The notes under the pieces were generated by a model that ran no database searches, was not told where the DNA came from, and saw only the letters and a list, made by a program, of their open reading frames with translations. A DNA stretch of 26,447 nucleotides from Burkholderiales bacterium. GTDB lineage: Bacteria; Pseudomonadota; Gammaproteobacteria; Burkholderiales; SG8-41. The position numbers were made by a program, and so were the translations under genes. Below are positions 2-14,744 of this stretch, piece after piece. The stretch is taken from NCBI GenBank assembly GCA_035259925.1, contig DATFVY010000054.1, positions 1-26,447 on the forward strand, in the 5' to 3' direction. The stretch's first letter is position 1. The number at the start of each line of letters is the position of its first letter.

Positions 2-853
2 AAGCTCGGCGTGGATTTCATCGACATCAACATGCTCAAAGTCTTCGCCGAAGAGAAGATCGACTGGACCGACGGCATGACGGCAATGATGGAGGCGCGC
101 GCGATCAAGAACGTGGACGAGCAGGAATGCCTGCGCATGGTTGGCGCGATCGGCGACGGCGCGCACTGGGAGTTCATGAACTTCCTCAAGCCCGGCATTA
201 CCGAGAACAAGCTCACCGCGCACATCATGGAGTACCTCTACGCCATCCCGGGGATGGAGGACGTGGAGGACGTGATCGTCTCCTCCGGGCCCAACACCTG
301 GCCCAACTGGCGCAACTTCTCCGACCGCATCGTCAAGCCCGGCGATATCGTGTTCATGGACCTCGCCGCGCTCACCTGGAACGGCTACAAGTCCTGCTAC
401 TACCGCACCTACTGCGCGGGCAAGGAGCCGACCAAGGAACAGAAGGACATCTACGCGACCGCGCTGAAGTGGCTCTACGACTCGATCAAGGCCGTGAAGG
501 TCGGCACCACGACGCGGGAGATTGCCTCCAAGTGGCCCTCGGCGAAGGAAGCCTGGGGTTACGCCGAGGAAGACCAGGCGGCGGCCAACCTGTGGGGACA
601 CGGCCTCGGGCTGGCGCAATACGACCAGCCGGTCATCTCGCGCATCTGGTCGCTCGACCACCCGATCGAGATCAAGGAAGGCATGGTGTTCGCGCTCGAG
701 ACCCAGCACGGCAAGATGTACGAATGGGGCGTGCGCATCGAGGAGATGCTGATCGTGCACAAGGACCGCATCGAGATCATCTCCAACTTCCCGGTCGAGC
801 AGATCACGGTCGTCGATCCGATGCCTGGCTACTCGACCCTTGCGGGACGCTAG
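2..853 (+). CDS. M24 family metallopeptidase-like protein (Xaa-Pro peptidase/creatinase fold), 5'-truncated by window edge
   Basis: Frame is open from base 2 to TAG at 851-853. Pita-bread motifs: GDIVFMD, GYKSCYYRT, GHGLGL, MVFALETQ, GVRIEEMLIV. Confidence 0.85.
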   Translation, partial: KLGVDFIDINMLKVFAEEKIDWTDGMTAMMEARAIKNVDEQECLRMVGAIGDGAHWEFMNFLKPGITENKLTAHIMEYLYAIPGMEDVEDVIVSSGPNTWPNWRNFSDRIVKPGDIVFMDLAALTWNGYKSCYYRTYCAGKEPTKEQKDIYATALKWLYDSIKAVKVGTTTREIASKWPSAKEAWGYAEEDQAAANLWGHGLGLAQYDQPVISRIWSLDHPIEIKEGMVFALETQHGKMYEWGVRIEEMLIVHKDRIEIISNFPVEQITVVDPMPGYSTLAGR

Positions 854-886
854 GAGGCTGCACCATCAACCAGGATGGAGGGGGCA

Positions 887-1906
887 ATGAGACCACGAAA
901 ATGGCTCGCCGCAGCCGCGGCGGCGCTGGCCGTGTCGGGTTGCGTTACGGTGGAGAAGCCGGTGCCGATGGAAGCGGTCATCGGCAACAACTTCGGCCAC
1001 CTGCCGATGTTCGTCGGAGTGGAGAAAGGCCTGTTCCGGCAGCACGGTGTCGATCTGAGGCTCAGAGTCGTCAACACTGGTACCGACATGGTCAACGCCA
1101 TGCAGAAGCGCGAGGTACAGATCGGCGACATGAGCGTGACCACCTTCCTCAAGGCGCGCCATGACGGCTCGCCCTTCACGGTGGTCGGGCTGATCATGAA
1201 CGACGCCAACGCGACCAACGCCGACGACCCCCTCGCGATCGTCGCGCGCAAGGACTCCGGCATCAGTCGGGTCGAGGACCTCAAAGGCAAGCGTGTCGGC
1301 CTCGCCCGCGGCCAGACTTCCGACGAGTACTTCAAGATGGTGCTGAGCCGGCGCGGCATGAAGTACGAGGACGTGCGGATCGAGAACATCATGGCGCCGC
1401 CCGCCATCGCGACAGCCCTCGCGCAGGGCAAGGTGGACGCGGTGGTTTCCTGGGAGCCGTTCAACACCATGGCGCTCGAGAGTGCCAAGGACTCCTACGT
1501 CGTGCTGCGCGGCGGCGGCCACCTGTCGTACATCATGGTGGCCACCGTGCACGACCCGATGCTGCGCAACGACCCGAAGACGGTACAGAATTTCGTCAAC
1601 GGACTCGCGGCGGCGTCCCACTACACCCGCAGGAATCGCCAGGAAGCGGTCGAAATCTTTGCAAAATGGGTCCCGAACGTGGACCGTGGCGTCGCGCAGA
1701 AGGCCGTCCAGCATATCAAGTACGACCCGCGCGTCTCGAGCGCGAGCCTGAAAGCTTTCGAGAATGCCCAGGGGGATCTGCTCAATCTGACGCTCAAGCC
1801 GGGGACCCAGCCGCTGCGCATCACGGACGTCGTGCTGGCGTCCTACACGCAGGTCGCGGAGAGGGACTTTCCCGAGTATTTCGCCGACCTGGCGCCCTTG
1901 AAATAA
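887..1906 (+). CDS. ABC-type substrate-binding lipoprotein, NMT1/THI5/SsuA-like (339 aa)
   Basis: ATG 887 follows GGAGGGG (alternative ATG at 875). Lipoprotein signal MRPRKWLAAAAAALAVSG-C19. Family-like segments DLKGKRVGLARGQTS and GKVDAVVSWEPF. Confidence 0.8.
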   Translation: MRPRKWLAAAAAALAVSGCVTVEKPVPMEAVIGNNFGHLPMFVGVEKGLFRQHGVDLRLRVVNTGTDMVNAMQKREVQIGDMSVTTFLKARHDGSPFTVVGLIMNDANATNADDPLAIVARKDSGISRVEDLKGKRVGLARGQTSDEYFKMVLSRRGMKYEDVRIENIMAPPAIATALAQGKVDAVVSWEPFNTMALESAKDSYVVLRGGGHLSYIMVATVHDPMLRNDPKTVQNFVNGLAAASHYTRRNRQEAVEIFAKWVPNVDRGVAQKAVQHIKYDPRVSSASLKAFENAQGDLLNLTLKPGTQPLRITDVVLASYTQVAERDFPEYFADLAPLK

Positions 1907-1917
1907 AGCGCGCCGAG

Positions 1918-3219
1918 ATGCAGAACCCGCTCATCTCTCTTGCGGCGCCGGAAGCGACGGACGCGGTCCGCGTCGGTCCTAAAGCCGCCAATCTGGCGGC
2001 GCTTGGCCGTGCGGGACTTCCCACTCCCGGGGGCTTCTGCCTCACGGCCGACGCCTATCGCGCCCAGCTGGCGCACCTCGGGCTGGAAGAGATGGCGCGC
2101 GAGGTCTTTTCGGCCGATGACGCCCGGGCGCGACGGAGCGCCTTGCGACTGCGCATGCAGTTGATGGAACAGCCAGTCCTGCCGGATGTGCAGGGGCCGT
2201 TGATCGCGGCATGGCGGGAAATGACGCGGCACGCCGCGATTCCGGGCGTCGTGCGGTCGACAGCATTGGTCGAGGACCGCCATGGATCGAGCTTCGCCGG
2301 TCAATTCGAGAGCTTTCTCGGCATAACGGACGAAGCCGACTTCCTCACCGCGGTACGCGCCTGCTGGGCCGCGCTTTGGGCGCCGCGCGCCCTGCGCTAC
2401 ATGGCCACGCACGACGTCGATCCGGCGCAAACGGCGATGGCGCTCCTGATCCAGCCGTTGGTAGCCGCGCGCGCGGCGGGTGGTGGCCTGAGCCGGACGG
2501 CTGAAGGGGAAATGCTGATCAACGCGACGCCGGGTCTCGGCTCCGCCATCGCGCAAGGCGAGGTCGCTCCCGACCGCTATCGCCTCGATCCCGCGGGGAA
2601 GCTGCGCGAGAGCCAGGCGGGGATCACCTATCACCAGGTGACGTGCGTGCACCAGCCGCATCTCTCGCGTCCCCGTGCAACCGGGAAATCCTGTCTCGCC
2701 CCAGCGCAGGTCGAGGAGCTGGGACGACTGCTGCTGGCGGCCGAGAAAGTCATGGACATGCCGGTCGAGATCGAATGGGCACTCGACGACGCCGGCTTCA
2801 AGCTCCTGCAGGCCCGACCGCTTCACCTGGACGACAAGCCTTCATCCCAACCCGCTGACCCGACCTGGCTGCGGCAGCCGCGTCTGCGCGGCCAGCCGGC
2901 AGGCGTGGGTTGGGGCACCGGCCGCGCCCGCGTGGTGAATTGCGAATGCGAAGTCTCGCGGATCGCGCCGGGTGACATCCTCGTGACGCGGGCCGCCGGG
3001 CCGGCGCTGGGCCGCGTGCTCGCCATCGTTGCCGGCGTCGTGACGGAGCTGGGCGGAAGCACTTCCCACCTCGCCTCCCTGGCGCGAGAGCGCTGCGTGC
3101 CGATGGTGCTGGGCGTGCCGGGAGCGACCCACCAGATACCCGAAGGCGCGCAGGTCGCCGTGGACGGCGTGGCGGGCATCGTGCGCTGGATGCGCGCCGG
3201 GGGCGCCGCGAGGGTCTAG
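1918..3219 (+). CDS. Minimal PEP-synthase/PPDK-like phosphotransferase: ATP-grasp domain plus phospho-His swivel domain (433 aa)
   Basis: ATP-grasp motifs VGPKAANL, VRSTALVED..SSFAGQFESF, IQPLV, GLGSAIAQGEVAPD, EIEWA, LQARP. Swivel motif TELGGSTSHLASLARE (His384, codon 3067-3069) and VAVDGVAGIV. ATG 1918 lies 11 nt after the upstream stop; the ORF-track extension to 1666 overlaps the previous gene. Confidence 0.85.
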   Translation: MQNPLISLAAPEATDAVRVGPKAANLAALGRAGLPTPGGFCLTADAYRAQLAHLGLEEMAREVFSADDARARRSALRLRMQLMEQPVLPDVQGPLIAAWREMTRHAAIPGVVRSTALVEDRHGSSFAGQFESFLGITDEADFLTAVRACWAALWAPRALRYMATHDVDPAQTAMALLIQPLVAARAAGGGLSRTAEGEMLINATPGLGSAIAQGEVAPDRYRLDPAGKLRESQAGITYHQVTCVHQPHLSRPRATGKSCLAPAQVEELGRLLLAAEKVMDMPVEIEWALDDAGFKLLQARPLHLDDKPSSQPADPTWLRQPRLRGQPAGVGWGTGRARVVNCECEVSRIAPGDILVTRAAGPALGRVLAIVAGVVTELGGSTSHLASLARERCVPMVLGVPGATHQIPEGAQVAVDGVAGIVRWMRAGGAARV

Positions 3220-3222
3220 GAC

Positions 3223-3861
3223 GTGGCCCAGAGAATTCGAGGCATTACCGACGCCGAGGCGACTGGCGTGGCCAGGGAACTGTTCGAGGCATCGAACCGG
3301 ATGCTGGGCCGGACCGCCAACCTGCAGCGCATCCTCGCGCACAGCCCGTACGTAGCGCGGTGGCTGCTACCCTTCATTGCCGCGGTGCGGCAGCCCGGCG
3401 CCGGTGCGGTATCCGATGTGCGGCTACGTAACCTGGCGGTGTTGAAGACGTCCACGATCAACGGCTGCAAATACTGAACGGAGCACAATCGCGTGCTTGG
3501 TCAAGCACTGGGGCTGAAGGACGAAGAGTTTGACGCGCTCCAGGGCGACTACCGTGCAAGCAGCCTCTTCGATCGGCGCGAAAAAGCCGTGCTGGCGTGG
3601 TCGGAGGCGATGACCCTCAACACGGCCAGGCGCGACGACGCGGTGTGGGACGAACTGCGGAGCCAGTTCAGCGACGCCGAGATCGTCGAGGTGTCGCTCG
3701 CGTGCGCGATGTTCAACATGATCAACCGCCTCAACGATTCCTTCCGCACGGAGCTCGAGCCGGAGGAATACAACCGCAGGCAGCATCGCGCCGTTGGGGT
3801 GGCTCGCGACGCGCTGGAGGAATACGCCTGCCGCATCTGCGGCGGTCGTAAAGGGACCTGA
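3223..3861 (+). CDS. AhpD/carboxymuconolactone decarboxylase family protein, predicted selenoprotein (212 aa, Sec85 at TGA 3475-3477)
   Basis: ORFs 3223..3477 and 3493..3861 are in the same frame and joined by one TGA: RNLAVLKTSTINGCKY-U-TEHNRVLGQALGL. This matches the AhpD NGCxYCxxxH pattern with the second Cys codon replaced by TGA. The C-terminal half carries typical CMD segments (REKAVLAWSEAMT, FSDAEIVEVSLACAMFNMINR). A hairpin follows the TGA. Confidence 0.85.
3493..3508 (+). promoter_or_regulatory. Putative bacterial SECIS element
   Basis: Perfect stem GTGCTT (3493-3498) / AAGCAC (3503-3508) with loop GGTC. The loop begins 22 nt after the UGA and starts with G. Confidence 0.7.
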
Positions 3862-4844
3862 TGCGCCCCCGCGTGTACGTGACGCAGCCGGTCGCGGCCA
3901 GCGCCCTCGAGCGGCTGCGCACGGTGGCCGATGTCGAGCTGAACCCCGACACGCTGCACAAGGTCACCAAGAGCGAGCTGCTGGAGCGGATGCCGCAGCT
4001 CGATCTCCTGTTCTGCCTGCTTCACGACAAGGTGGACCGCGACGTCATCGCGGCCGGCCAGCGTCTGCGCGCCATCGCTTCGATGAAGATCACGCCCTCC
4101 GACATAGACGTGGCCGCGGCCACCGCGCGGCGCCTGCCGGTCACGGTGATCCCCCCGATGGTGACGGAGGCTACCGCTGACATGCATTTTGCACTGCTCC
4201 TGGCCGTAGCCCGGCGCGTGGTCGAGGGCGACCAGCTGCTGCGTTCCGGCGTGTTTCCCGGCGCGCAATCGGCGCATCTGCTGGGCGCCGCGGTGCACGG
4301 GCGGACCATCGGCCTCATCGGCGGTGGGGGACGCATCGGGAAAGCGGTGGCGAAGCGGGCGCAGGGCTTCTCGATGCGCACCCTCTACTGGACGCCGCGC
4401 CGCAAGGCCGAGGCGGAGGAGCGGGAAGCCGGGCTCACCTATGTGCCTTATGACCAGCTCCTCGCTGAATCGGATTTCGTCTCGGTGCACGCTCCTCTCA
4501 CCGCCGAGACGCGCCACCTGGTCGGCGAGCGCGAATTGCAGCTGATGAAGCCCACGGCATTCCTCGTCAACACCGCGCGCGGTCCGATCGTGGACGAGAA
4601 AGCCCTGGTGCGCGCGTTGAAGGCGGGCCGCATCGCGGGCGCCGGCCTCGATGTCTACGAGAACGAGCCTGAAGTCGAGCCCGAGCTGATCGCCATGAAG
4701 AATGTCGTGCTTACGCCGCACCTCGGCAGCGCCGCGAAGGAGTTGCGCGAGGCCATGGCCAACATCGTGGTGGATAATATCTTCGCGGTGCTCGAAGGAC
4801 GGCGACCGCCCAACTGCTGGAATCCCGAGATATACAATTCGTGA
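3861..4844 (+). CDS. D-isomer-specific 2-hydroxyacid dehydrogenase (glyoxylate/hydroxypyruvate reductase-like)
   Basis: TEATADMHFALLLAVARR, IGLIGGGGRIG, catalytic-triad motifs NTARG, DVYENEP and TPHLGS. ATG overlaps the upstream TGA (TGATG). Confidence 0.92.
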   Translation: MRPRVYVTQPVAASALERLRTVADVELNPDTLHKVTKSELLERMPQLDLLFCLLHDKVDRDVIAAGQRLRAIASMKITPSDIDVAAATARRLPVTVIPPMVTEATADMHFALLLAVARRVVEGDQLLRSGVFPGAQSAHLLGAAVHGRTIGLIGGGGRIGKAVAKRAQGFSMRTLYWTPRRKAEAEEREAGLTYVPYDQLLAESDFVSVHAPLTAETRHLVGERELQLMKPTAFLVNTARGPIVDEKALVRALKAGRIAGAGLDVYENEPEVEPELIAMKNVVLTPHLGSAAKELREAMANIVVDNIFAVLEGRRPPNCWNPEIYNS

Positions 4845-4854
4845 AGGATCCGTA

Positions 4855-5847
4855 ATGGCTGGAAAAGCGAAAGTGGTGCTCACCGACTACGTCTGGGAGT
4901 CGCTGGACGTGGAGAAGAAAATCCTCGCTGGCGTGGCGGACCTGGTGCCGCTGCAAACCAAGAAGCCCGAGGACTTCCTCGCGCAGGCGGCGGATTGCGA
5001 CGCGCTGCTCAACACCTACGCCGGCCCCATCACCGGCGACGTCATGGCGAAGATGCCCAAGTGCAAGATCATCGCGCGCTACGGCATAGGCGTGGATACC
5101 ATCGATCTCAACGCGGCCACCCAGGCGGGCATCATCGTGACCAACAACCCCACCTATTGCATCGAGGAGGTTGCGGAGCACACCATGGCGCTGCTCCTCG
5201 CCGCCGCCCGCAAGGTGCCGTTCTACGACCGCATGGTGCGCGCACGCACTTGGGCGGTACCGCCCGGAAAGCCGCTCTATCGCCTGGTGGGTCAGACGCT
5301 CGGACTGGTCGGCTTCGGCAATATCGCGCGCCAGGTGGCGCTACGCGCCGCCGCCTTCGGCATGAAGGTGCTCTATGCCGATCCCTTCGTGAGGGAAGGA
5401 CAGTTCAGCGAACCCGGCAGGAAGACGGAGCTGAACACGCTGCTCAAGGAGGCGGATTTCGTATCCGTGCACCCTCCCCTCACGCCGGAAACGCGCAAGA
5501 TGATCAACGACGACGCCTTCTCGCGCATGAAGCCGACCGCCATCCTCATCAACTGCTCGCGCGGGCCGGTGGTGGATACAGACGCCCTGGTGCGGGCGCT
5601 CGACGCGAAGAGGATCGCCGGCTGCGCCCTCGACACCGTGGATCCCGAGCCGCTGCCGGATCCCCATCCGTTGCGCGGCCGTGAGAACGTGATTCTCAAC
5701 CCCCATGTTGCCTGGTACAGCGAGACCGCGATGGTGGGCTTGCAGGCGGGCGCGCCCAACGAGGTGCGCCGCCTGCTGGCGGGCGAATGGCCGGTGAACG
5801 TGGTCAACAAAGCCGTCAAAGAAAAGAATCGCGCGGGGCTCAAGTGA
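4855..5847 (+). CDS. D-isomer-specific 2-hydroxyacid dehydrogenase, CtBP-like subfamily (330 aa)
   Basis: ARYGIGVDTID, NNPTYCIEEVAEH, GLVGFGNIA, YADPF, NCSRG, DTVDPEP, NPHVAWYS. ATG 4855 is 10 nt after the upstream stop. Confidence 0.9.
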   Translation: MAGKAKVVLTDYVWESLDVEKKILAGVADLVPLQTKKPEDFLAQAADCDALLNTYAGPITGDVMAKMPKCKIIARYGIGVDTIDLNAATQAGIIVTNNPTYCIEEVAEHTMALLLAAARKVPFYDRMVRARTWAVPPGKPLYRLVGQTLGLVGFGNIARQVALRAAAFGMKVLYADPFVREGQFSEPGRKTELNTLLKEADFVSVHPPLTPETRKMINDDAFSRMKPTAILINCSRGPVVDTDALVRALDAKRIAGCALDTVDPEPLPDPHPLRGRENVILNPHVAWYSETAMVGLQAGAPNEVRRLLAGEWPVNVVNKAVKEKNRAGLK

Positions 5848-6815
5848 TCAACGCCGCGATCATCGGGCTGGGCTGGTGGGGCAAGAACATCGTCCAGTGC
5901 ATCCAGGGCAGGAGCGAGAAGCTTCGCTTCGTGCACGGCGTCAGCAAGGAGATCGACGCGGCCCTGCCCATCGCGGAGGCTAATGGCTTCACGCTCAGCG
6001 ACGACCTGGAGAAGGCGCTCGCCGACAAGCGCGTGGAGGCCGTCGTGCTGGCAACCCCGCATTCATTGCATGCCGACCAGATCGTGCGCGTTGCCGCCGC
6101 CGGCAAGCCGGTGTTCTGCGAGAAGCCGCTAGCGCTCAAGCGCGCGGATGCCGAGCGCGCAGTGGCAGCGTGCCGCAAGGCCGGGGTTGCGATCGGAGTG
6201 GGACAGAACAAGCGCTTCTGGCCCTCCATGGTGGAACTGCAGCGCGTCGTGGCGAGCGGCGCGCTCGGCCGCATCATGCACATCGAGGGCCATTACAGCA
6301 ACGAGAATTCGGGGCTGCATTTCTCCGCCTGGCGCGACTCGCCAAGCGAGTCACCCGGCGGCGGCATGACCGGGACCGGCATTCATCTCCTCGACTGGTT
6401 CATCGCGCTCGGCGGGCCAGTATCCGAGGTAAGCGCGCAAGTCGTGACTCACCGCTCCGGCGCCGACCCGCGCGACGCCGCGTCCGTCATGTTCCGCTTC
6501 GCCAATGGCCTGAGCGGCTACTTCGGCCTGGTGCGCGCCTCGCCGATCTACTGGCGCGTGCACGTTTTCGGCGACGAGGGCTCGGTCGAGGGACTGGGTG
6601 AAACCGAGCTGGTGGTGAGGACGCGCGGTGGCAAGGTGGAGCGGCGCGAATTCGCGAAGGTCGATTCGATACGCGTCGAGATCGATGCCTTCGCCGACGC
6701 CGCCGCGGGACGCAGCCCTTACCCTATCACCCCGGCGGAAATGGTGAATACGATCGCCGCCTTCGAAGCCATCATCCGCTCGATGGATAGCGGTAAACCG
6801 GCGCGGGTCGGCTGA
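5844..6815 (+). CDS. Gfo/Idh/MocA family NAD(P)-dependent oxidoreductase (323 aa)
   Basis: AAIIGLGWWG, ATPHSLH, VFCEKPL, GGGMTGTGIHLLD. GTG start overlaps the upstream TGA (GTGA). Confidence 0.92.
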   Translation: MINAAIIGLGWWGKNIVQCIQGRSEKLRFVHGVSKEIDAALPIAEANGFTLSDDLEKALADKRVEAVVLATPHSLHADQIVRVAAAGKPVFCEKPLALKRADAERAVAACRKAGVAIGVGQNKRFWPSMVELQRVVASGALGRIMHIEGHYSNENSGLHFSAWRDSPSESPGGGMTGTGIHLLDWFIALGGPVSEVSAQVVTHRSGADPRDAASVMFRFANGLSGYFGLVRASPIYWRVHVFGDEGSVEGLGETELVVRTRGGKVERREFAKVDSIRVEIDAFADAAAGRSPYPITPAEMVNTIAAFEAIIRSMDSGKPARVG

Positions 6816-6869: not shown

Positions 6870-8711
6870 TCACAGCGCGCGCTCGAGCTGCTCCCTCTGT
6901 TCGTAGAGCTCTTTCGGCATGCGCGACTTGAGCTTGTCGTAGAGGTCGGCGTGATCCTTCACTTCCTTGCGCCACACGACCGGATCCACCTGCGTTAGCT
7001 CCTGGAAACGGGCACGGGTGAAGCCGTCGAGCCCGTTCCACTCGATGTCCTCGTAGCGCGGCTGCAGCCCCAGCGGCGTTTTCACTGCGTCCACCTTGCC
7101 CTCGATGCGGTCGATGACCCACTTCAGCACGCGCATGTTCTCGCCGAAGCCGGGCCAGATGAATTCGCCCTTCGCGTCCTGGCGGAACCAGTTGACGCCG
7201 AAGATGCGTGGCGCGTGCTTCAGGCCGCGCCCGATATTCAGCCAGTGCTTGAAATAGTCGCCGTAGTGATAGCCGCAAAACGGCAGCATCGCGAAGGGGT
7301 CGCGTCGCACCACGCCCACCTGGCCGACGATCGCCGCGGTGGTTTCAGACGCCATGGTCGAGGCCATGTAGACCCCATGCGTCCAGTCGAACGATTCGGT
7401 CACCAGCGGCACGGCGGTCGCGCGCCGCCCGCCGAAAAGGAACACGCTGATCGGCACCCCGTCGGGGTTCTGCCAGTCGGGATCCGCCGAAGGGATCTGG
7501 GCGCAGCTCATGGTAAAGCGCGCGTTGGGATGCGCCGCCTTGCGCCCGCTGCCCGGCGTCCACGCCTTGCCCTGCCAGTCGGTGAGCTGCGGGGGCGGTT
7601 CCTTGGTCAGGCCTTCCCACCACACGTCGCCGTCGGGCAGCAGCGCGACGTTGGTAAAGATCGTGTCGTGCCCCACTGCTTTCAGGCAATTGGGGTTGGT
7701 GAACTCGGAGGTCCCCGGCGCCACGCCGAACGCGCCGGCCTCGGGATTGATCGCGTAGAGCCTGCCGTCCTTCCCGGGCTTGATCCAGGCGATGTCTTCG
7801 CCGACGGTGGTGACTTTCCAACCCTTGTCCTTGAATACCTTGGGCGGAACCAGCATGGCGAGGTTGGTCTTGCCGCACGCGCTGGGGAAGGCCGCCGCGA
7901 TGTAGTACTTCTTCTTCTCGGGCGTTTCCAACCCCAGGATCAGCATGTGCTCGGCCAGCCAGCCCTGCTCCTTCGCCATGATCGACGCGATGCGCAGCGC
8001 GAGGCACTTCTTACCGAGCAGCGCGTTGCCGCCGTAGCCGCTGCCGAACGACCAGATTTCCTTGGTTTCGGGGTAATGGACGATGTACTTGTGCTGCTTG
8101 TTGCTGGGCCACACTGCGTCCTTCTGCCCCGGCGCGAGCGGCGCGCCCACGGTATGCACGCAAGGCACGAAATAGGCGTTCGTCCCCAGCACGTCGAGCA
8201 CCTTGCGCCCGATACGTGTCATCAGCTTCATGTTGACGACGACGTAGGGTGAATCGGTGAGCTCGACCCCGATGTGCGCGATGTGCGAGCCGAGCGGCCC
8301 CATGCTGTAAGGGATCACGTACATCGTGCGCCCGCGCATGCAGCCGTCGAACAGGGGCTTCAAGGTGGCGCGCATCTCGTCCGGCGCCACCCAGTTGTTG
8401 TTGGGACCCGCGTCTTCCTGGTTGCGGCTGCACACGAAAGTGCGCTCTTCCATGCGCGCGACGTCGTCGGGGTCGGAGCGGGCCAGGAAGCAGCCGGGCC
8501 GCTTCTGCTGGTTGAGCTTGATCAGCATGCCGCTCGCCACCATCTCGGCGCACAGGCGGTCGTACTCTTCCTGCGACCCGTCGCACCAGTAAATGCGGTC
8601 GGGCTTGGTCAGGCTGGCGATCTCGGAAACCCAGGCGGCGAGCTTGGCGTGCTTGACGTAGGCGGGCGTCGCTGCAGTCTTGGCCAGGTAAGCCGCGCTG
8701 GGGTGATTCAT
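6870..8711 (-). CDS. pckG: Phosphoenolpyruvate carboxykinase (GTP)
   Basis: 613 aa with hallmark motifs [99 protein letters not shown]. Confidence 0.97.
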
Positions 8712-8835: not shown

Positions 8836-10017
8836 CTACGCGGCGCGCGGCTGACGGCGCAACCACGCGAGCCACGCGATTCCGGCCCCCGCCAGCAGCA
8901 GGAAGGGGACGGCCCAGGTATTCATCGTCTGCCAGCCCTGGTAGGTAAAAAGCGCCCCCGACGACAGGGAGCTCACCACCAGGGTGAGGAAGATCAGGGC
9001 ATCGTTGACGCCCTGCACCTTGGCGCGCTCGGCCGGGGTATGCGATTCGGTGAGCAGCGTCGTCGCGCCTACGAACAGGAAGTTCCAGCCCACCCCGAGC
9101 AGCACGAGCGCAAACCAGAAGTGCGCTACGTCCATTCCGGCGAGCGCGATGACCACGCAGACGATGTTGAGCGCGATCCCGGTCAGCATGACGGGCAGCA
9201 GCCCGGTGCGTTGAATCACCATGCCAGTGACCAGCGAGGGCGCAAACATGGCCACCATGTGCCACTGGATCACGAATGCCGCGTCGCTGAACGGATGATG
9301 AGCGTCCATCATGGCAAGCGGTGTCGCCGTCATCAGCAAGTTCATCACCCCGTAACTGACCATGCCGGACAGCAGCGCCACGATGAACGCCGACTGCCGC
9401 GCGATCTCGGACATGGGTCTGCCGGCATCCTTGAGCGCGGATTCCGGCAGCGCCGGGATGTCGAGCCAGCGCAGCAACAGTATGGTAAGGACCGCCACCG
9501 CAATCAGCGAGAGGTACGCGCCGACGTAGGCATGGCCGGCGACGGCGTCATTGGTGAGCTTGCTCGTTTCCGGGCCCAGAAAGCCGCCGACGATGCCCCC
9601 GGCCAGCACCAGCGAGATCGCCTGGCTCTTGAAATCGGCGGGCACCGAGTCGGCTGCCGCGAAGCGATAGTACTGCGCGGCCGCAAAGTAGCCGCCCAGC
9701 ACCAGCACACCGATGCACAGCAGCCAGAAGGCGGACGCGTACACGCCCCACGCGGACAGGGCCGACCCGAGGATCGCGAAGACCGCCCCGACGGTGAATC
9801 CCGCGCGCCTGCCGATGCGCTTCATCAGCAGCGACAGGGGCATGGCGGCGAGGGTCGATCCGACGAAGTACATCGTCACCGGGAGCGTGGCGAGCGCCTT
9901 GTCCGGTGCGAGCGCGTAGCCCGCGAGCCCGTTGACGGCGACCAGGATCGAGTTGTTGGTGAACAACAGAGCCTGGCACGCCGCCAGCACCGCGACGTTC
10001 TTGCGCGCCGGGTCCAT
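8836..10017 (-). CDS. MFS transporter (393 aa)
   Basis: About 12 hydrophobic segments and a loop motif [11 protein letters not shown]. Also contains YRFAAAD and [11 protein letters not shown]. Confidence 0.9.
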
Positions 10018-10024
10018 CGCGACG

Positions 10025-10726
10025 TCAGCGCCGCTGGAACTGCACCTTACCGAACATGATCTCCCATGACTTGTCGCTATGCGGCGCCTGGTTGGCGGCC
10101 TGCACGTCGGCCAGCACTTTCAGGGCGCGCTGCACGGCGGGACGGGCGTTGATCTCGTCGAACCAGCGCTTGACGTTGGGGTATTCCGCGATATTGACGC
10201 CGCGGGCATCGGCGCCGCGCAGCCAGGGAAAGCTGGCGATGTCGGCGATCGAGTACTCGGTCCCGGTGAGGTAGCGCGTCCGTCCGAGCTGCTTGTCCAG
10301 CACGCTCGTCAGGCGGTTGGACTCGCTGGTGTAGCGGTCGATTGCGTACTGCAGCTTTTCTTTCGAGTAACGGCGGAAATGGTTGGCCTGCCCCATCATG
10401 GGGCCGAGGCCGCCCATCTGCCACATCAGCCACTGCACGCAGGTCCAGCGCGCGTGCATGTCCGCGGGCAGCAGCTTGCCGGTCTTGGAGCCGATGTAGA
10501 GCAGGATCGCGCCCGATTCGAACAGAGAAAGCGGCTTCCCGTTGGGGCCGTCGTGGTCCACGATGGCCGGGATGCGATTGTTGGGGCTGATCTTGAGGAA
10601 TTCGGGCTGAAACTGCTCGCCTTCCCGGATGTTGACGCTGTGGATCCGGTACTGGAGTCCGGTTTCCTCGAGCGCGATGTGAACCTTGTGACCGTTCGGT
10701 GTCGGCCAGGTGTATACGTCTATCAT
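10025..10726 (-). CDS. Glutathione S-transferase family protein, YfcG-like (233 aa)
   Basis: N-terminal YTWPTPNGHKV (TPN motif), ISPNNRIPAIVD, LFESGAILLY, WQMGGLGPMMGQ, YSIADIA. Confidence 0.92.
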   Translation of the reverse strand: MIDVYTWPTPNGHKVHIALEETGLQYRIHSVNIREGEQFQPEFLKISPNNRIPAIVDHDGPNGKPLSLFESGAILLYIGSKTGKLLPADMHARWTCVQWLMWQMGGLGPMMGQANHFRRYSKEKLQYAIDRYTSESNRLTSVLDKQLGRTRYLTGTEYSIADIASFPWLRGADARGVNIAEYPNVKRWFDEINARPAVQRALKVLADVQAANQAPHSDKSWEIMFGKVQFQRR

Positions 10727-10910: not shown

Positions 10911-12140
10911 ATGCCACGGTTCACATCATGGTGGTTGCCGCCGGGCACGTCGCCCGACGCGGGGCTGATTCTTGCCGCGCGCGGTATCCGCGCCTTCACC
11001 GATGGCTACGTGGCGCTGCTGCTCCCCTACTACCTCACCCTGCTCGGCTATGGAGCGCTGGAGATAGGCGTCATCGCCACCGCGACGCTCTTGGGGTCCG
11101 GGCTGCTTACTCTGCTCGCGGGCCTGTTCGCCTACCGCTTCCGGCTCCACGCGCTGCTCACCGCGGCGTGCGTGCTCATGCTCGTCAGCGGCCTGGGCTT
11201 CGCCACCTTCACGGATTTCTGGCCGCTGCTTCTCATCGCCGCTATCGGTACCCTCAACCCGTCGACCAGCGATGTCAGCGTGTTCCTGCCGATCGAGCAG
11301 ACCATCCTCTCGCATGCGGCGCCCGCCGAGCACCGCACCGTTCTTTTCTCGCGCTACAGCCTGGTGGCTCACCTGGTCGGCGCGCTCGGCGCGCTCGCCG
11401 CAGCCGTGCCCGGAATAGTCGCTCAGTGGGAAGTCCTCGAACTGAAGGCCGCCGTGCAAGTCATGTTCGTGGCCTACGGATTGTCCGCCCTTATCGTGCT
11501 CGCTCTTTACCGGCGGCTGGCCTCCGCCGGTTCCCACGGTGACGAGTCGCGCCCCGCTCCACTGGGGGCTTCACGCGGCGTCGTCTATCGTCTGGCGGCG
11601 CTATTCAGCCTCGACGCCTTCGGCGGCGGCTTCGCGGTGCAGTCCCTGCTCGCGCTGTGGCTGTTCCTCCGTTTCGATCTCTCGGTGGAAATGGCAGGCA
11701 CGATCTTTTTCTGGACCGGCGTGCTGGCAGCGGCATCCTTCCTCGCGGCACCGGCGATAGCCCGGCGCATCGGCCTGATCAACACGATGGTGTTCACGCA
11801 CCTGCCTGCGAACATCTTCTGTGTGCTCGTCCCCTTCATGCCGACGCTGGCGCTCGCCGTGCTGTTCCTGCTTCTGCGCGCGGCGCTTTCGTCCATGGAC
11901 GTCCCGGCACGCAGCTCCTACGTGATGGCGGTGGTCTCCCCGTCCGAGCGGCCCGCTGCCGCGGGCGTCACCGCCGTGCCGCGCAGCCTCGCCGCAGCCA
12001 CCAGCCCGGCTATCGCCGGCTATCTCCTGACCTTGAGCAGTTTCGGCTGGCCGCTGGTCATCTGCGGCGCGCTCAAAATCGCCTATGACCTGGCGCTGCT
12101 TGGGCTCTTCAGCAAGGTAAAACCGCCTGAAGAGCGGTGA
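10911..12140 (+). CDS. MFS transporter (409 aa)
   Basis: About 12 hydrophobic segments. Motifs ARGIRAFTDG, GTLNPSTSDVSVFLPIEQ, FSLDAFGGGF, ARRIGLINTMVFTH, MDVPARSSY. Confidence 0.9.
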   Translation: MPRFTSWWLPPGTSPDAGLILAARGIRAFTDGYVALLLPYYLTLLGYGALEIGVIATATLLGSGLLTLLAGLFAYRFRLHALLTAACVLMLVSGLGFATFTDFWPLLLIAAIGTLNPSTSDVSVFLPIEQTILSHAAPAEHRTVLFSRYSLVAHLVGALGALAAAVPGIVAQWEVLELKAAVQVMFVAYGLSALIVLALYRRLASAGSHGDESRPAPLGASRGVVYRLAALFSLDAFGGGFAVQSLLALWLFLRFDLSVEMAGTIFFWTGVLAAASFLAAPAIARRIGLINTMVFTHLPANIFCVLVPFMPTLALAVLFLLLRAALSSMDVPARSSYVMAVVSPSERPAAAGVTAVPRSLAAATSPAIAGYLLTLSSFGWPLVICGALKIAYDLALLGLFSKVKPPEER

Positions 12141-12174: not shown

Positions 12175-13239
12175 CGCTCCACCCCTTGATGGCAGGCGGC
12201 TCGCGCGCAGCACCGGCGCCCACTTGTCCGTTTCGGTATGGATGCGGGTCGCAAACTGCTCGTAAGTCATGGTGGCGGGCTCGAGTCCGAGGCCGCGCAA
12301 ATGCGCCTGGATGGCGCGGCTCGCGATCAGGCCGCTCACCTGGCTTCTCACCCACGCAGTGGCAGGAGCAGGCGTGCCGGCCGGCGCGAACAGGCCGTAC
12401 CATCCCTCGATCTCGAATCCGGGGAGACCGGACTCGTCCAGCGTGGGTACCCCCTCCAGCCGATCGCTCCGCCGCACGCTGGTGACGGCCAGCGGCTTGA
12501 AGTGGTCGTTGGGAAGATAGGCGAGCGCGAGCGGCAGCGCCGCAAACATCAGCGAGACCTGCCGTTGCGCGATGCCGCTCAGGGCGGCGACCCCGCCGTT
12601 GAACGAGGCGTGCACGATGTGCACCCCGGCTTTGCGCCGGAACAGCTCCCCTGCCAGATGACCGGTGCTGCCGTCGCCGGAGGACCCGTAGTTGATCTCG
12701 CCTGGCCGCGGGCGCAGCCATTCGACGAACTCGCGCGGTGTATCGACGGACAGGCTCGTGCTCACCATCAGCACGAACGGCATCGTGGCGAGCGGCGTCA
12801 CCAGGATGAAGTCGCGCGCGGGATCGTACTCGACGCCCTGGAAATAGTGGGGATTGATGACGATCGTGCCGTTGCTTGCCAGCAGCAGCGTGTGACCGTC
12901 GGCCTCCGCGCGCGCCACCGAGGTGGCACCGCGCGTGGTGACAGCGCCCGGCTGGCGTTCGAGGAGGACCGGAAATCGGCTGTCGGGCTGGATGGCCTGG
13001 GCGGCAACCCGCGCCAGCGTGTCCGATATCGCCGGCGGGGCATTGTGGGCGATCATGCGGTAGGTGCGCGACATGCGCATCGTCCCACGGATGTCGGAGG
13101 GCCCGCTGATCGGGTACGGCACCACGATCTTGAGCGGCTTCGAGGGGAACGGCTGGGCAATCGCGCCGGGCGGAAGATGAACCGCCCCGACGCCAAGAAC
13201 ACCGAGGATCGTCAGAAGGCGTTTGGAGTCACGCAACAC
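12172..13239 (-). CDS. Bug/TctC tripartite tricarboxylate transporter substrate-binding protein
   Basis: Signal peptide then AQPFPSKPLKIVVPYP, ADGHTLLL, YDPARDF, NYGSSGDGSTGHLAGELF, VPTLDESG, WYGLFAPAGTP, KWAPVL. Start codon (GTG 13239) is uncertain. Confidence 0.88.
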   Translation of the reverse strand: MLRDSKRLLTILGVLGVGAVHLPPGAIAQPFPSKPLKIVVPYPISGPSDIRGTMRMSRTYRMIAHNAPPAISDTLARVAAQAIQPDSRFPVLLERQPGAVTTRGATSVARAEADGHTLLLASNGTIVINPHYFQGVEYDPARDFILVTPLATMPFVLMVSTSLSVDTPREFVEWLRPRPGEINYGSSGDGSTGHLAGELFRRKAGVHIVHASFNGGVAALSGIAQRQVSLMFAALPLALAYLPNDHFKPLAVTSVRRSDRLEGVPTLDESGLPGFEIEGWYGLFAPAGTPAPATAWVRSQVSGLIASRAIQAHLRGLGLEPATMTYEQFATRIHTETDKWAPVLRASRLPSRGGA

Positions 13240-13306
13240 GATTCGCGGCTCACACGTCCGTGAGCTGGATGGATTTCAGCCCCGGATATTGGACCTTCAA
13301 CGGGCG

Positions 13307-13690
13307 TCAGGATTCGCGCATTTCCAGGTCGGCGCCAAGCTCGCGTACCGTCTCGACCATGCGGTCGAGCTCCTGCTCGACCGATTGCTTGACCTCGGGG
13401 TCGTCCGGATAGCACAGCAGCCACAAGTCGGGAAAGGTTCCCGCGACGCGTTTGCGGCGTCCCAGCACCAGGCGGCGCGCGGCGTCCTCGAGCTCGCGCC
13501 TGAGCATGAACTCGGTGCCGTGATCCCAATAGATCGAGAGCGTATCGACCTTGAGACCGGATCGCAGCAGGCGAACCACGAATTCGAACCGGATCGAATG
13601 CATGCCCATGGCTCGCAACTGCACGACACGGTGCGCCGGCACCGGCTGTCCGTCGCGCAGCGCGTTCAGTTCTTCTTTTCTGGATGCCAT
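13307..13690 (-). CDS. Hypothetical protein (127 aa)
   Basis: Fills the gap between same-strand neighbours without overlap and has globular protein-like composition. No family recognised. Alternative ATGs at 13609 and 13603. Confidence 0.65.
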   Translation of the reverse strand: MASRKEELNALRDGQPVPAHRVVQLRAMGMHSIRFEFVVRLLRSGLKVDTLSIYWDHGTEFMLRRELEDAARRLVLGRRKRVAGTFPDLWLLCYPDDPEVKQSVEQELDRMVETVRELGADLEMRES

Positions 13691-13798
13691 GGCGGATTGA
13701 CGATCAGCACGGACATTAGCCTAGCGACTGCAGACCTGCGGTGCAAATCTATCATTTTGTTAGATTTTTCTTGGGGAACGGAATGCGGAAGGCAGGAC

Positions 13799-14257
13799 CT
13801 ACCGGTCAAGCGCGGCACCCATATCCCTGAGCTCGCCCCGCTTCCAGCGCAGCCAGGTGCGTAACCGGCGAAAATCGCGTGGTTCCACGTTGTCCTCGAC
13901 CAGGACCACCCGCCGCGTCCCTGCGCCAGCCCGCGGCCGCAGCCTGACGATGGTGAGGCTGGAAGAAACATAGCTTGACCCCAGCAGCTCGCACTCCACC
14001 CGGCGCCCGTCGCGCGTCTGAAAGAACGCGGTCCCGCTGTCGTCGAGTTCGAGCGCGACGATCGCACGCGCGGCGTGCAACGTAGCATCGCGCGCCAGCA
14101 GGTAGACCAGACTGATGGCGATGCCGAGCGTGACAGCCGCCCGGCCCAGCGCGGGGACGGGAACCAGCCACAGCAGCGCAGCCGCAATGCCGTGGACCAC
14201 GCACAGCGCCAGCGCAAGCCGGACCGAGGGTGAGATGGCGACCCGATGGGTCAGCAC
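13799..14257 (-). CDS. ygfX: YgfX (CptA) family membrane protein
   Basis: 152 aa with two N-terminal TM segments after ISPSVRL. C-terminal SYVSSSLTIVRL and DNVEPRDFRRLRTWLRW match the family's D..FRRLR.WL signature. Confidence 0.75.
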   Translation of the reverse strand: MLTHRVAISPSVRLALALCVVHGIAAALLWLVPVPALGRAAVTLGIAISLVYLLARDATLHAARAIVALELDDSGTAFFQTRDGRRVECELLGSSYVSSSLTIVRLRPRAGAGTRRVVLVEDNVEPRDFRRLRTWLRWKRGELRDMGAALDR

Positions 14258-14517: not shown

Positions 14518-14720
14518 AGCGCATTCCTCCTTAGGTGGAACCCGATTGAGGCAGCCATGCGCAAGCGGGGCTTGAGAACGTCGCCCCGGCGTCCCCTGAA
14601 GCGCCGCGCCGCCGTAACTCTACCGCCCATGCGAGGCTTTGGGTGTGACTTGTGGCGCAGCCTCGGTGCGATCGGCCCGTTGGCGACTGGGTCGAGGCCC
14701 TGGCCGCCAGAGATCGGCCC

Positions 14721-14729: not shown

Positions 14730-14744
14730 CTCTAACCCATTGAT

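What the first reader, a model, noticed from the sequence alone, without database searches (positions are those of the whole stretch)
3223..3861. Hidden selenoprotein: in-frame UGA gives a C-K-Y-U motif in an AhpD/CMD protein
Seen: a single TGA (3475-3477) falls exactly at the second Cys position of NGCxYC, the frame continues intact for 127 more codons, and both ends are translationally coupled to neighbours. Known: CxxU AhpD-like proteins are among predicted bacterial selenoprotein families, so the fold is not new, but standard gene callers split or truncate such genes. The operon context is what is unusual. No sel machinery genes are in this window.
Basis: partly seen in the sequence, partly recalled or inferred. 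Interest (0 to 1): 0.82.

Follow-up and report, generated by a model that had tools for sequence, protein, structure and literature searches.

The report
Unannotated selenocysteine AhpD-like redox protein
This is a real but routinely mis-annotated selenoprotein gene: a 212-residue AhpD-like redox protein whose in-frame UGA is read as selenocysteine with the help of a conserved RNA hairpin just downstream. The type of protein is already known, so it is a solid new member and not a new kind of thing.

Summary

**The gene.** Window 3223-3861 (+) is one 212-codon gene with TGA at codon 85 (3475-3477), inside C82-K-Y-U85-T-E-H88.

**Comparative evidence**
- All 80 species-level relatives fetched, and 17 same-genus genomes, carry TGA at this codon.
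- In every full-length database homolog the position is an invariant Cys.
- dN/dS is the same upstream (0.12) and downstream (0.14) of the TGA.

**SECIS.** A 6-bp hairpin with a GGUC loop (3493-3508) starts 15 nt after the UGA. The *E. coli* fdhF SECIS has the same loop.
- It pairs fully in 79 of 79 orthologs.
- Its six codons show essentially no synonymous variation.
- Diverged paralogs keep an equivalent hairpin through compensatory changes.

**Sec machinery.** The genome, an incomplete soil Burkholderiales MAG, has selA, selB, a Sec-containing selD and tRNA-Sec.

**Fold.** The predicted structure (pLDDT 92.5) matches AhpD-like structures.

**Novelty.** CxxU AhpD-like selenoproteins have been known since 2005, so this is a new member of a known kind. 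No curated model captures this clade. Three things are new:
- the clade itself
- a C-terminal CxxC that travels with the Sec form
- a partly conserved operon with a dikinase-like enzyme and dehydrogenases

Selenium incorporation and the substrate remain untested.

The parts
3223..3861 (+). Complete selenoprotein CDS: 212 codons plus stop, GTG start, Sec at codon 85, terminal TGA 3859-3861.
   Evidence: Orthologs start with ATG at the same position. dN/dS is 0.116 upstream and 0.144 downstream of the TGA. The AF2 model has pLDDT 92.5 with an AhpD-like fold.
3210..3213 (+). Shine-Dalgarno-like GAGG, 9 nt before the GTG start and inside the 3' end of the upstream gene.
   Evidence: Read directly from the sequence. 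Not tested further.
3466..3486 (+). Redox motif C82-K-Y84-U85-T-E-H88. The Cys82 codon is 3466-3468, the Sec85 codon is 3475-3477 and the His88 codon is 3484-3486.
   Evidence: C82, Y84, C85 and H88 are invariant in 34 aligned sequences. TGA is present in 79 of 79 motif-matched orthologs, and in L123 by eye. The motif lies at the N-terminal cap of helix 83-95 in the model.
3493..3508 (+). SECIS apical hairpin. The 5' arm is GUGCUU (3493-3498), the loop is GGUC (3499-3502) and the 3' arm is AAGCAC (3503-3508). It starts 15 nt after the UGA, and the loop starts 21 nt after it.
   Evidence: Fully paired in 79 of 79 orthologs. Codons +6 to +11 have third-position entropy of 0 to 0.1, against about 1 at flanking synonymous sites. 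Paralog hairpins give 100% pairing, 3 of 6 pairs with compensatory changes, and a covariation score of 0.655 against 0.338 for shuffles (0 of 500 shuffles reach it). The E. coli fdhF SECIS has the same GGUC loop 18 nt after its UGA.
3481..3498 (+). Competing hairpin: GAGCAC (3481-3486) pairs with the same GUGCUU arm. Probably not functional.
   Evidence: It is the single-sequence MFE fold, but it pairs fully in only 25 of 79 orthologs. A ribosome with the UGA in its A site should cover it (inference).
3829..3840 (+). C-terminal second dithiol motif C203-R-I-C206 (Y-A-C-x-[I/F]-C).
   Evidence: 72 of 76 Sec orthologs match C-x-[I/V/L]-C. Three of the other four have CRFC or CTFC, and the fourth (L052) has a longer tail whose printed part begins with the IC of the motif. 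Only 1 of 115 Cys homologs (P0003) has it. The model places it on a terminal helix, 195-205, with pLDDT about 70-87.
1666..3219 (+). Upstream neighbour: an ATP-grasp (PPDK_N) plus phospho-histidine swivel domain protein of 517 aa. It lacks the C-terminal acceptor domain of PEP synthase.
   Evidence: Pfam PF01326 and PF00391. It matches only positions about 10-460 of the 798-position PEP synthase model. It lies directly upstream in 42 of 74 informative ortholog loci.
3861..6815 (+). Downstream neighbours: two D-2-hydroxyacid dehydrogenases (3861-4844, and about 4850-5847 within ORF 4702-5847) and a Gfo/Idh/MocA oxidoreductase (5787-6815).
   Evidence: Pfam and NCBIfam. A 2-HADH lies directly downstream in 39 of 71 loci. 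Gfo lies directly downstream in 9 of 71, and within 4.6 kb in 25 of 45. The closest Cys homolog, P0002, is also adjacent to a Gfo/Idh/MocA gene.

Best explanation
Window 3223-3861 encodes one 212-residue selenoprotein of the AhpD/CMD fold.

**Decoding.** When the ribosome reaches UGA-85, the upstream competing pairing is melted. The hairpin GUGCUU-GGUC-AAGCAC, 15 nt downstream, recruits SelB-GTP-Sec-tRNA(Sec), and selenocysteine is inserted instead of termination. The final UGA (3859-3861) has no such hairpin and terminates.

**Protein.** It carries a C82-x-x-U85 redox centre at the N-terminus of a helix, with Y84 and H88 beside it. Sec85 is inferred to be the attacking nucleophile, forming a selenenylsulfide with Cys82 during turnover. 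The enzyme would then be a thiol/selenol oxidoreductase that reduces a peroxide, sulfenic acid or disulfide on a partner or small molecule. The clade-specific C-terminal C203-x-x-C206 is inferred to shuttle electrons into that centre.

**Shown here:** gene integrity, Sec-codon conservation, RNA-level constraint and covariation of the hairpin, presence of the Sec machinery, and the fold.

**Inferred:** actual selenium insertion, the chemistry, the role of the tail, and any link to the neighbouring dikinase-like and dehydrogenase genes.
For: - **Sec codon.** TGA is at the same codon in 17 same-genus genomes and in 80 of 80 species loci. The position is an invariant Cys in 33 full-length homologs.
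- **Selection.** dN/dS is 0.116 upstream and 0.144 downstream. dS drops from about 1.0 to 0.37 in the 20 codons after the Sec codon.
- **Hairpin constraint.** GTG CTT GGT CAA GCA CTG shows essentially no synonymous change in 79 species, in a 66.5% GC genome, although four of those codons end in A or T (GC). It is fully paired in 79 of 79. The single variant turns a U-A pair into U-G.
- **Covariation.** Three paralog groups (B, C, D), with different stems, keep a hairpin with a G-U-C loop 17-21 nt after their own UGA. The formal count on groups A-C gives 100% paired, 3 of 6 pairs compensatory, and 0 of 500 shuffles reaching the covariation score. Slid controls pair at 31-48%.
- **Reference SECIS.** The loop matches the E. 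coli fdhF SECIS loop, GGUC.
- **Machinery.** selA plus selB on C90, selD with U at the known catalytic Cys position (HGGG-U-GCK), and tRNA-Sec.
- **No recoding.** TGA is the commonest terminator of long frames in this genome, 617 of 1036, so there is no genome-wide reassignment.
- **Fold.** AF2 pLDDT 92.5. Foldseek top hits are all AhpD-like (2gmy, 6k40, 2prr, 7xw1, 6e8l) plus Bmp8, with target TM 0.8-0.9.
- **Evolution.** The Sec orthologs form one clade with Cys sisters.
- **Literature.** CxxU AhpD-like selenoproteins are an established family (PMC1088965, PMC2398784, PMC13188914).
Against: - There is no direct evidence of selenium in the product, and no RNA or protein data. The two 'RNA?' runs are of uncertain type.
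- Rfam's curated models, SECIS families included, give no match even at E up to 10.
- Single-sequence folding prefers the competing hairpin, and no fold stands out from shuffles (z of -0.29, -1.55 and -0.62). The SECIS call therefore rests on comparative evidence only.
- The canonical AhpD proton relay is incomplete. Asn70 replaces the Glu, and the His lies 3 residues after the second redox residue instead of 4 (alignment against PA0269; PMC3141380). Peroxide-linked chemistry is therefore an analogy.
- Scores are below the cut-off for Pfam CMD (20.9 against 23), TIGR01926 (67 against 81.8) and both curated '(seleno)protein' AhpD models.
Confidence: 0.93

Rival explanations
1. The gene is a pseudogene. 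The TGA is a nonsense mutation or an assembly error in a former CxxC AhpD-like gene.
For: Gene callers treat it as broken. Only a 122-aa C-terminal fragment from this window is in the protein collection (P0090). The MAG is fragmentary, at 53.5% completeness.
Against: The same TGA is present in 80 of 80 species loci and in 17 same-genus genomes. dN/dS downstream (0.144) is as low as upstream (0.116), with no frameshifts or further stops. Contigs from independent runs list no difference at the codon.
Confidence: 0.01
2. There are two separate small genes. An 84-aa N-terminal peptide ends at the TGA, and a 122-aa protein re-initiates at GTG 3493.
For: GTG 3493 is invariant in the orthologs and lies 15 nt after the TGA. 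ORF 3493-3861 is listed as an ORF and was called as a protein.
Against: The invariance covers all six codons of the hairpin, not only the GTG. TGA-bearing paralogs have no start codon at the equivalent position (TCG, GCG, CTG or GGG there), yet they keep a hairpin. Every Cys homolog is a single chain, and a split would separate C82 from residue 85 and H88. The AF2 model is one compact domain.
Confidence: 0.01
3. The UGA is read through without selenocysteine, for example by near-cognate Trp or Cys insertion or a lineage-wide TGA reassignment.
For: The frame is clearly translated through the UGA, and nothing here measures which residue is inserted.
Against: TGA closes 617 of 1036 long frames in this genome, and it closes this gene and its neighbours. 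A full Sec machinery is present, and selD is itself a TGA-containing gene. A SelB-type hairpin with the fdhF-like GGUC loop is under RNA-level selection. The position is a redox Cys in homologs, the classic Sec/Cys pair.
Confidence: 0.03
4. It is a genuine selenoprotein, but not a general peroxide-defence AhpD. It is a dedicated redox component of the conserved operon, either reducing or activating an intermediate handled by the acceptor-less dikinase-like enzyme and the 2-hydroxyacid and Gfo/Idh/MocA dehydrogenases, or carrying out Bmp8-like reductive chemistry.
For: The order dikinase-like gene, then Sec gene, then 2-HADH is tight and conserved in more than half of the informative loci. The Gfo/Idh/MocA adjacency recurs in a shortened operon form (9 of 71) and next to the closest Cys homolog, P0002. 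The canonical AhpD relay is incomplete (PMC3141380). No AhpC-type peroxiredoxin turned up among the window ORFs scanned. Bmp8, a debrominase, is among the structural neighbours.
Against: The more distant Sec orthologs (73-75% identity) lie in unrelated contexts such as TctC plus amidohydrolase. Another Cys homolog stands alone beside a GST. The association is therefore not obligatory, and neighbourhood alone is weak evidence of shared function.
Confidence: 0.25

Closest known systems
AhpD-like CxxU selenoproteins of the Sargasso Sea and GOS surveys (AhpD-like 1, COG2128; 'AhpD-like protein' TIGR01926; CMD-like PF02627). Sources: PMC1088965, PMC2398784, PMC13188914.
   Same: The same superfamily and the same CxxU motif, with Sec replacing the second Cys of CxxC. 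Cys homologs greatly outnumber Sec forms. The function is likewise unknown and presumed to be redox.
   Different: This clade scores below the TIGR01926 and PF02627 cut-offs. It is confined mainly to one uncultured soil and groundwater Burkholderiales family. It also carries an extra C-terminal CxxC. I could not check identity with any specific published sequence.
NCBIfam NF053654 'YciW-related (seleno)protein' (GroundWater_YciW) and NF041238 'AhpD_rel_CFYUT'.
   Same: These are the best-scoring curated families. Both are AhpD-related families in which Sec and Cys forms alternate.
   Different: Scores are 73 against a cut-off of 310, and 36 against 175, so it is not a member of either. The paralog groups B-D in the same genus also fall below these cut-offs.
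E. coli fdhF SECIS element.
   Same: A hairpin immediately 3' of the UGA and inside the coding region, with an identical GGUC apical loop. The loop begins 18 nt after the UGA in fdhF and 21 nt after it here.
   Different: The stem sequence is unrelated. The fdhF fold has an unpaired U in the 5' arm next to the apical stem, and this 6-bp stem has no equivalent. No long lower stem is evident. No Rfam model matches. SelB binding has not been tested.
Mycobacterium tuberculosis AhpD and Pseudomonas aeruginosa PA0269 (2o4d, 2ijc, 7xw1).
   Same: An all-helical AhpD fold with the C-x-[H/Y]-C motif on a helix-turn-helix. The Tyr between the two redox residues matches PA0269 (PMC3141380).
   Different: Sec replaces the second Cys. 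Asn70 replaces the relay Glu. The His is at +3, not +4. The protein has about 65 extra N-terminal residues compared with PA0269, plus a C-terminal CxxC tail. No ahpC neighbour turned up among the window ORFs scanned.
Bmp8 debrominase (6ohi, 6ohj).
   Same: A CMD/AhpD fold enzyme. The solved substrate complex is a C82A variant, which suggests a catalytic Cys at that position. Query TM is 0.72-0.73.
   Different: Only 18-19% identity. There is no evidence here of halogenated substrates.

Membership tests
Bacterial selenoprotein gene (SelB/SECIS-decoded UGA) | The in-frame UGA aligns with Cys in homologs. | tested here: met
   U85 aligns with an invariant Cys in 33 full-length homologs.
Bacterial selenoprotein gene (SelB/SECIS-decoded UGA) | The UGA is conserved in orthologs and the coding frame is under purifying selection beyond it. 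| tested here: met
   TGA in 80 of 80 species loci and in 17 same-genus genomes. dN/dS is 0.144 downstream against 0.116 upstream.
Bacterial selenoprotein gene (SelB/SECIS-decoded UGA) | A stem-loop just 3' of the UGA with G and U in the apical loop, supported by conservation and covariation. | tested here: met
   Hairpin at 3493-3508 with a GGUC loop. Fully paired in 79 of 79. No synonymous variation. Compensatory changes across paralogs, with 0 of 500 shuffles reaching the covariation score. Same loop as fdhF.
Bacterial selenoprotein gene (SelB/SECIS-decoded UGA) | The genome encodes selA, selB, selD and tRNA-Sec. | tested here: met
   selA 529.7 bits and selB 436.9 bits on C90, selD 411.4 bits on C127, all above their cut-offs. 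tRNA-SeC(tca) on C356.
Bacterial selenoprotein gene (SelB/SECIS-decoded UGA) | Selenium is actually incorporated at the UGA position. | not testable with these tools
   Needs 75Se labelling or mass spectrometry.
Rfam curated SECIS families | A match to a SECIS covariance model. | tested here: not met
   cmscan of 3200-3900 at E up to 10 returned only two unrelated chance hits.
AhpD/CMD superfamily (Pfam PF02627, AhpD-like fold) | Sequence match above the Pfam gathering score. | tested here: not met
   20.9 bits against a cut-off of 23, E = 3.6e-4. Several close homologs do carry a precomputed PF02627 hit.
AhpD/CMD superfamily (Pfam PF02627, AhpD-like fold) | An all-helical AhpD fold with the redox motif on the conserved helix pair. 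| tested here: met
   AF2 pLDDT 92.5. 36 PDB chains at E <= 1e-3, all AhpD/CMD family, with target TM 0.79-0.90. phmmer hits to 2gmy, 2ijc, 7xw1 and 6k40.
Canonical AhpD (M. tuberculosis AhpD / PA0269 type) | A proton relay of Glu ... C-x-x-C-x-x-x-H. | tested here: not met
   In the HMMER alignment to PA0269, Glu36 aligns with Asn70 and His55 aligns with Asn89. The protein's own His88 is at +3 (relay residues from PMC3141380). The C-x-Y-C core itself is conserved.
Canonical AhpD (M. tuberculosis AhpD / PA0269 type) | A functional partnership with an AhpC peroxiredoxin. | tested here: inconclusive
   No peroxiredoxin turned up among the window ORFs scanned. The rest of the genome was not searched, and the MAG is 53.5% complete.
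TIGR01926 peroxidase-related enzyme subfamily | A score at or above the curated cut-off (81.8 bits). | tested here: not met
   67.0 bits.
NF053654 YciW-related (seleno)protein; NF041238 AhpD_rel_CFYUT (seleno)protein | A score at or above the curated cut-off (310 and 175 bits). | tested here: not met
   73.2 and 36.0 bits.

The most novel reading that the evidence does not exclude
The Sec form co-evolved with a C-terminal CxxC tail. In much of the clade it also sits between an acceptor-less ATP-grasp/phospho-histidine enzyme and 2-hydroxyacid and Gfo-type dehydrogenases. On the most novel reading, the selenoprotein is the redox module of a so far undescribed small-molecule pathway, perhaps linked to an SsuA-like binding protein. 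It would work as a three-centre relay (tail dithiol, then Cys82, then Sec85) that performs a reductive step on a phosphorylated or oxidised intermediate, and not in peroxide defence.
Probability: 0.15. Interest if true: 0.65.

Novelty: new member of a known kind. Interest (0 to 1): 0.4.

Why it matters
**Annotation.** At least 80 species-level genomes of an uncultured soil and groundwater Burkholderiales lineage carry this gene. The protein search returned no full-length Sec ortholog, only the 122-aa C-terminal fragment from this window (P0090), and no curated HMM reaches its cut-off. A dedicated model plus the SECIS described here would correct the annotation. It would also add a well-supported entry to selenoprotein catalogues such as BSepDB.

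**Biology.**
- This is an unusually clean natural example of a coding-region SECIS, because the footprint is visible as six codons frozen at synonymous sites.
- The lineage has expanded AhpD-like selenoproteins to several paralogs per genome.
- The Sec-for-Cys change coincides with the gain of a second CxxC.

These points make testable questions of why Sec is kept in this fold and what AhpD-like 'peroxidase-related' proteins actually reduce. The finding does not change what is known about how Sec is decoded or which protein families use it.

Tried and rejected
- **Rfam scan of 3200-3900 at E up to 10.** No SECIS family matched.
- **Single-sequence thermodynamics.** The MFE fold picks the competing hairpin, and z-scores are unremarkable at -0.29, -1.55 and -0.62. 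I therefore did not use folding energy as evidence.
- **Competing hairpin (3481-3486 with 3493-3498).** Rejected as the functional element because only 25 of 79 orthologs pair it fully.
- **Joint MAFFT alignment of all four hairpin groups.** MAFFT placed group D's loop indel inside the stem (A3). The formal pair count was therefore limited to groups A-C (A4). Group D hairpins are described only from the raw sequences.
- **Full maximum-likelihood tree of 191 rows.** It did not finish in time. I used a thinned FastTree of 97 rows instead. Its support for the Sec clade is 89 (SH-like), and the midpoint root is for drawing only.
- **Expression evidence.** No holder is on record as RNA. The two 'RNA?' runs are labelled GENOMIC RNA-Seq and are kept as contigs, so transcription is not shown.
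- **Pseudogene, split gene and recoding.** Considered and rejected (see the rival explanations).
- **Not done.** Complex prediction, a covariance-model search of the genome for further SECIS elements, and a genome-wide census of selenoproteins.
Full report
**Observation.** The stretch 3223-3861 on the + strand starts with GTG and has one in-frame TGA at 3475-3477 (codon 85). It stays open for 127 more codons to TGA 3859-3861. The local motif is N-G-C82-K-Y-U85-T-E-H88. The upstream gene ends in TAG at 3217-3219, three bases before the start, with a GAGG at 3210-3213. The terminal TGA overlaps the ATG of the next gene by one base.

**Is it a gene broken by a stop, or a Sec codon?** A search of 40 related genomes found orthologs at 79-93% identity in 17 same-genus genomes, each with exactly one TGA. 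Translation shows the TGA at the identical codon in all of them, with the frame open to a normal end.

A scan of one genome per species found 80 further loci at 73-94% identity. Of these, 79 matched my motif pattern with TGA, and the 80th (L123) also has U at that position when read by eye.

Full-length database proteins at 56-70% identity all have Cys at this position. C82, Y84, C85 and H88 are invariant in 34 aligned sequences.

Pairwise dN/dS among 16 complete orthologs is 0.116 upstream of the TGA and 0.144 downstream, or 0.132 when the first 20 downstream codons are left out. The part after the stop is therefore as constrained as the part before it.

Contigs from public soil runs list no difference at 3475-3477, including relatives of about 90% identity from a different study. 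TGA is also the commonest terminator of long frames in this genome, at 617 of 1036, and it ends this gene and four of its neighbours. There is no general reassignment of TGA.

**Sec machinery.** The genome is a fragmentary MAG of 2.0 Mb in 403 contigs, 53.5% complete and 66.5% GC. It still holds the full set:
- selA (529.7 bits) and selB (436.9 bits), adjacent on contig C90
- selD (411.4 bits) on C127
- a tRNA-Sec (anticodon tca) on C356

selD itself has an in-frame TGA in HGGG-U-GCK. From memory, and not checked here, this is the position of the catalytic Cys17 of E. coli SelD.

**SECIS.** Fifteen nucleotides after the UGA lies GUGCUU-GGUC-AAGCAC (3493-3508). Taken alone, its folding energy is not remarkable, and the MFE fold prefers a competing pairing of GAGCAC (3481-3486) with the same GUGCUU arm. 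The comparative evidence, however, is strong.
- dS falls from about 1.0 to 0.37 in the 20 codons after the Sec codon.
- Across 79 species, codons +6 to +11 (GTG CTT GGT CAA GCA CTG) have third-position entropy of 0 to 0.1. Flanking synonymous sites sit near 1, and the codon just before the hairpin varies freely (CGG, TAC, CGA, TGG, AAA and others). This is in a 66.5% GC genome, yet four of the six codons end in A or T.
- The hairpin pairs fully in 79 of 79 orthologs, and the one variant turns a U-A pair into U-G. The competing hairpin pairs fully in only 25 of 79.
- The same genus carries diverged paralogs (29-44% identity) that also have C-x-Y-U-x-x-H. Three paralog groups (B, C, D) each have a hairpin 17-21 nt after their own UGA, with different stems (GCGCUU/AAGCGU, UCGCCU/GGGCGA, CCGGGG/CUCCGG) and a G-U-C loop. 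In codon register these hairpins sit at different offsets, so they are maintained independently of the protein alignment.
- On a hairpin-anchored alignment of groups A-C, all cells pair and 3 of 6 pairs show compensatory changes. The covariation score is 0.655 against 0.338 for shuffles (0 of 500 reach it), and slid controls pair at only 31-48%.
- The E. coli fdhF SECIS, read from the K-12 genome, has the same GGUC apical loop. It begins 18 nt after its UGA, against 21 nt here.
- This genome's own selD has a strong hairpin with a GUU loop that begins 20 nt after its UGA.

Rfam has no matching model.

**The protein.** Pfam gives only a sub-threshold CMD match of 20.9 bits. The best NCBIfam hits are NF053654 'YciW-related (seleno)protein' (73 bits, cut-off 310), TIGR01926 'peroxidase-related enzyme' (67, cut-off 81.8) and NF041238 (36, cut-off 175). 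All are below their cut-offs.

An AlphaFold2 model built from 34 sequences is confident, with pLDDT 92.5 and pTM 0.88. It is all-helical, with C82 and U85 at the N-terminal cap of helix 83-95. Foldseek returns only AhpD/CMD proteins at significant E-values: Atu0492, D. radiodurans AhpD, PA0269, S. pneumoniae AhpD and Bmp8, with target TM 0.79-0.90. Sequence search of the PDB agrees.

Compared with the PA0269 and M. tuberculosis AhpD proton relay (Glu, C-x-x-C, His at +4; PMC3141380), this protein keeps C-x-Y-[C/U]. It has Asn70 in place of the Glu, and its His is at +3. It is therefore AhpD-like but not canonical AhpD.

By analogy with CxxC and CxxU oxidoreductases, I infer that Sec85 is the nucleophile and Cys82 the resolving residue.

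**A clade-specific extra.**
- A C-terminal Y-A-C-x-[I/F]-C is found throughout the 76 complete Sec orthologs. 72 match C-x-[I/V/L]-C, three have CRFC or CTFC, and L052 has a longer tail after the motif. Only one of 115 Cys homologs (P0003) has it, and P0003 is one of the two closest Cys relatives.
- In a FastTree of 97 sequences the Sec orthologs form one clade (support 89). P0002 and P0003 are the nearest Cys proteins, and a large all-Cys clade lies outside. One Cys/Sec change is enough to explain the tree.
- One Cys homolog, P0065, is fused to a thioredoxin domain. This suggests a thioredoxin-type partner for the family.

**Context.**
- Upstream is a 517-aa protein with PPDK_N and PEP-utilizer swivel domains. 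It matches only the first 460 or so positions of PEP synthase models and so lacks the acceptor domain.
- Further upstream is an SsuA-family binding protein.
- Downstream are two D-2-hydroxyacid dehydrogenases and a Gfo/Idh/MocA oxidoreductase.
- A GTP-PEPCK, a GST and MFS transporters follow on the other strand or further along.

Among the 80 loci:
- the dikinase-like gene lies directly upstream in 42 of 74 informative cases
- a 2-HADH lies directly downstream in 39 of 71
- Gfo lies directly downstream in 9 of 71
- Gfo lies within 4.6 kb in 25 of 45

The most distant Sec orthologs lie elsewhere; L115, for example, sits beside a TctC receptor and an amidohydrolase. The closest Cys homolog, P0002, follows a Gfo/Idh/MocA gene, and another, P0017, stands beside a GST. 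The operon link is real for part of the clade but is not a defining property.

**Distribution.** Record titles name uncultured Burkholderiales or Betaproteobacteria MAGs from soil and groundwater. A few other labels are probably binning or labelling errors. In an even draw of 300 genomes of the order, orthologs (E <= 1e-60, all with one TGA) were found in 4 of 6 genomes of the window's own family outside its genus. They were also found in 1 of 7 genomes of one other family, and in none of the genomes searched in the remaining families. The window sequence itself is held by soil-metagenome runs.

**What is known.** CxxU AhpD-like proteins were reported as selenoprotein families in the Sargasso Sea and GOS surveys. 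AhpD-like 1 (COG2128) was the fourth most abundant family in GOS. Current reviews and BSepDB list them (PMC1088965, PMC2398784, PMC13188914, PMC13326102). The kind is therefore known.

What I did not find described, and what no curated model captures, is this Burkholderiales clade with its SECIS, its C-terminal CxxC and its partial operon association.

**Verdict.**
- Genuine selenoprotein gene (0.93).
- New member of a known kind.
- Moderate interest.
- Selenium incorporation, substrate and partner remain to be shown.

The scan's first-stage notes on this window (a GGUC hairpin with a competing fold, and a seven-gene operon) agree with what I found independently. I tested the first fully and the second in part.

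Noticed in passing
G000 contig C127, about 348-1277 (-) (locus L006): This genome's selD is itself a selenoprotein gene. It has an in-frame TGA in HGGG-U-GCK, followed by a strong hairpin (-26.9 kcal/mol, z = -2.7) whose GUU loop begins 20 nt after the UGA.
   Followed up: partly
Same-genus genomes, e.g. L033 (G015:C174), L035 (G014:C126), L036 (G008:C248), L040 (G001:C46), L041, L042: AhpD-like selenoproteins are expanded in this genus. One search confirmed 17 paralog genes in the fetched loci with C-x-Y-U-x-x-H. They are often in tandem arrays that mix TGA and Cys copies. In one search, genomes such as G008 and G014 list about 7-8 TGA-bearing AhpD-like matches each. All score below the cut-offs of the curated (seleno)protein models.
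   Followed up: partly
window 3829-3840; orthologs L046-L125: A C-terminal Y-A-C-x-[I/F]-C motif is seen throughout the 76 complete Sec orthologs, but in only 1 of 115 Cys homologs (P0003). It may be a second redox centre gained around the time of the Cys-to-Sec change.
   Followed up: partly
protein P0065 (341 aa, database homolog): A Cys-form homolog is fused to a C-terminal thioredoxin domain (PF00085). This Rosetta-stone hint suggests the family works with a thioredoxin-type partner.
   Followed up: no
window 1666-3219 (+): A 517-aa protein with an ATP-grasp (PPDK_N) and a phospho-histidine swivel domain but no acceptor or PEP-binding domain. It is related over that part to PEP synthase, rifamycin phosphotransferase and the PigC/RedH ligases. 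Its substrate is unknown.
   Followed up: partly
window 127-1164 (+), and the tested + strand frames in 12238-17973: Long open frames with no Pfam hit. ORF 127-1164 also has no NCBIfam hit. In DNA of 66% GC, some of the other frames I tested may be the wrong frame or strand.
   Followed up: no
window 6870-8711 (-), 10025-10726 (-), 8836-10017 (-), 10911-12140 (+): A GTP-dependent PEP carboxykinase lies convergent with the operon's end. A glutathione S-transferase and two MFS transporters follow. A Cys homolog of the selenoprotein (P0017) also sits beside a GST elsewhere.
   Followed up: no
loci L053-L055, L058, L062, L080, L091, L100, L103, L110-L112, L116, L118, L120, L123: Record titles label some MAGs as Streptomycetaceae, Bordetella parapertussis, Chitinophaga pinensis, Syntrophobacteraceae, Acidimicrobiaceae or Rokubacteria. 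Their loci are nevertheless 73-84% identical, and for many syntenic, to the Burkholderiales ones. These are probably taxonomy-label or binning errors in the public records.
   Followed up: no
protein P0090 (122 aa) = window 3493-3861: The public protein collection holds only the C-terminal fragment of this gene, called from the GTG inside the SECIS hairpin. This shows directly how gene callers mis-annotate it.
   Followed up: yes
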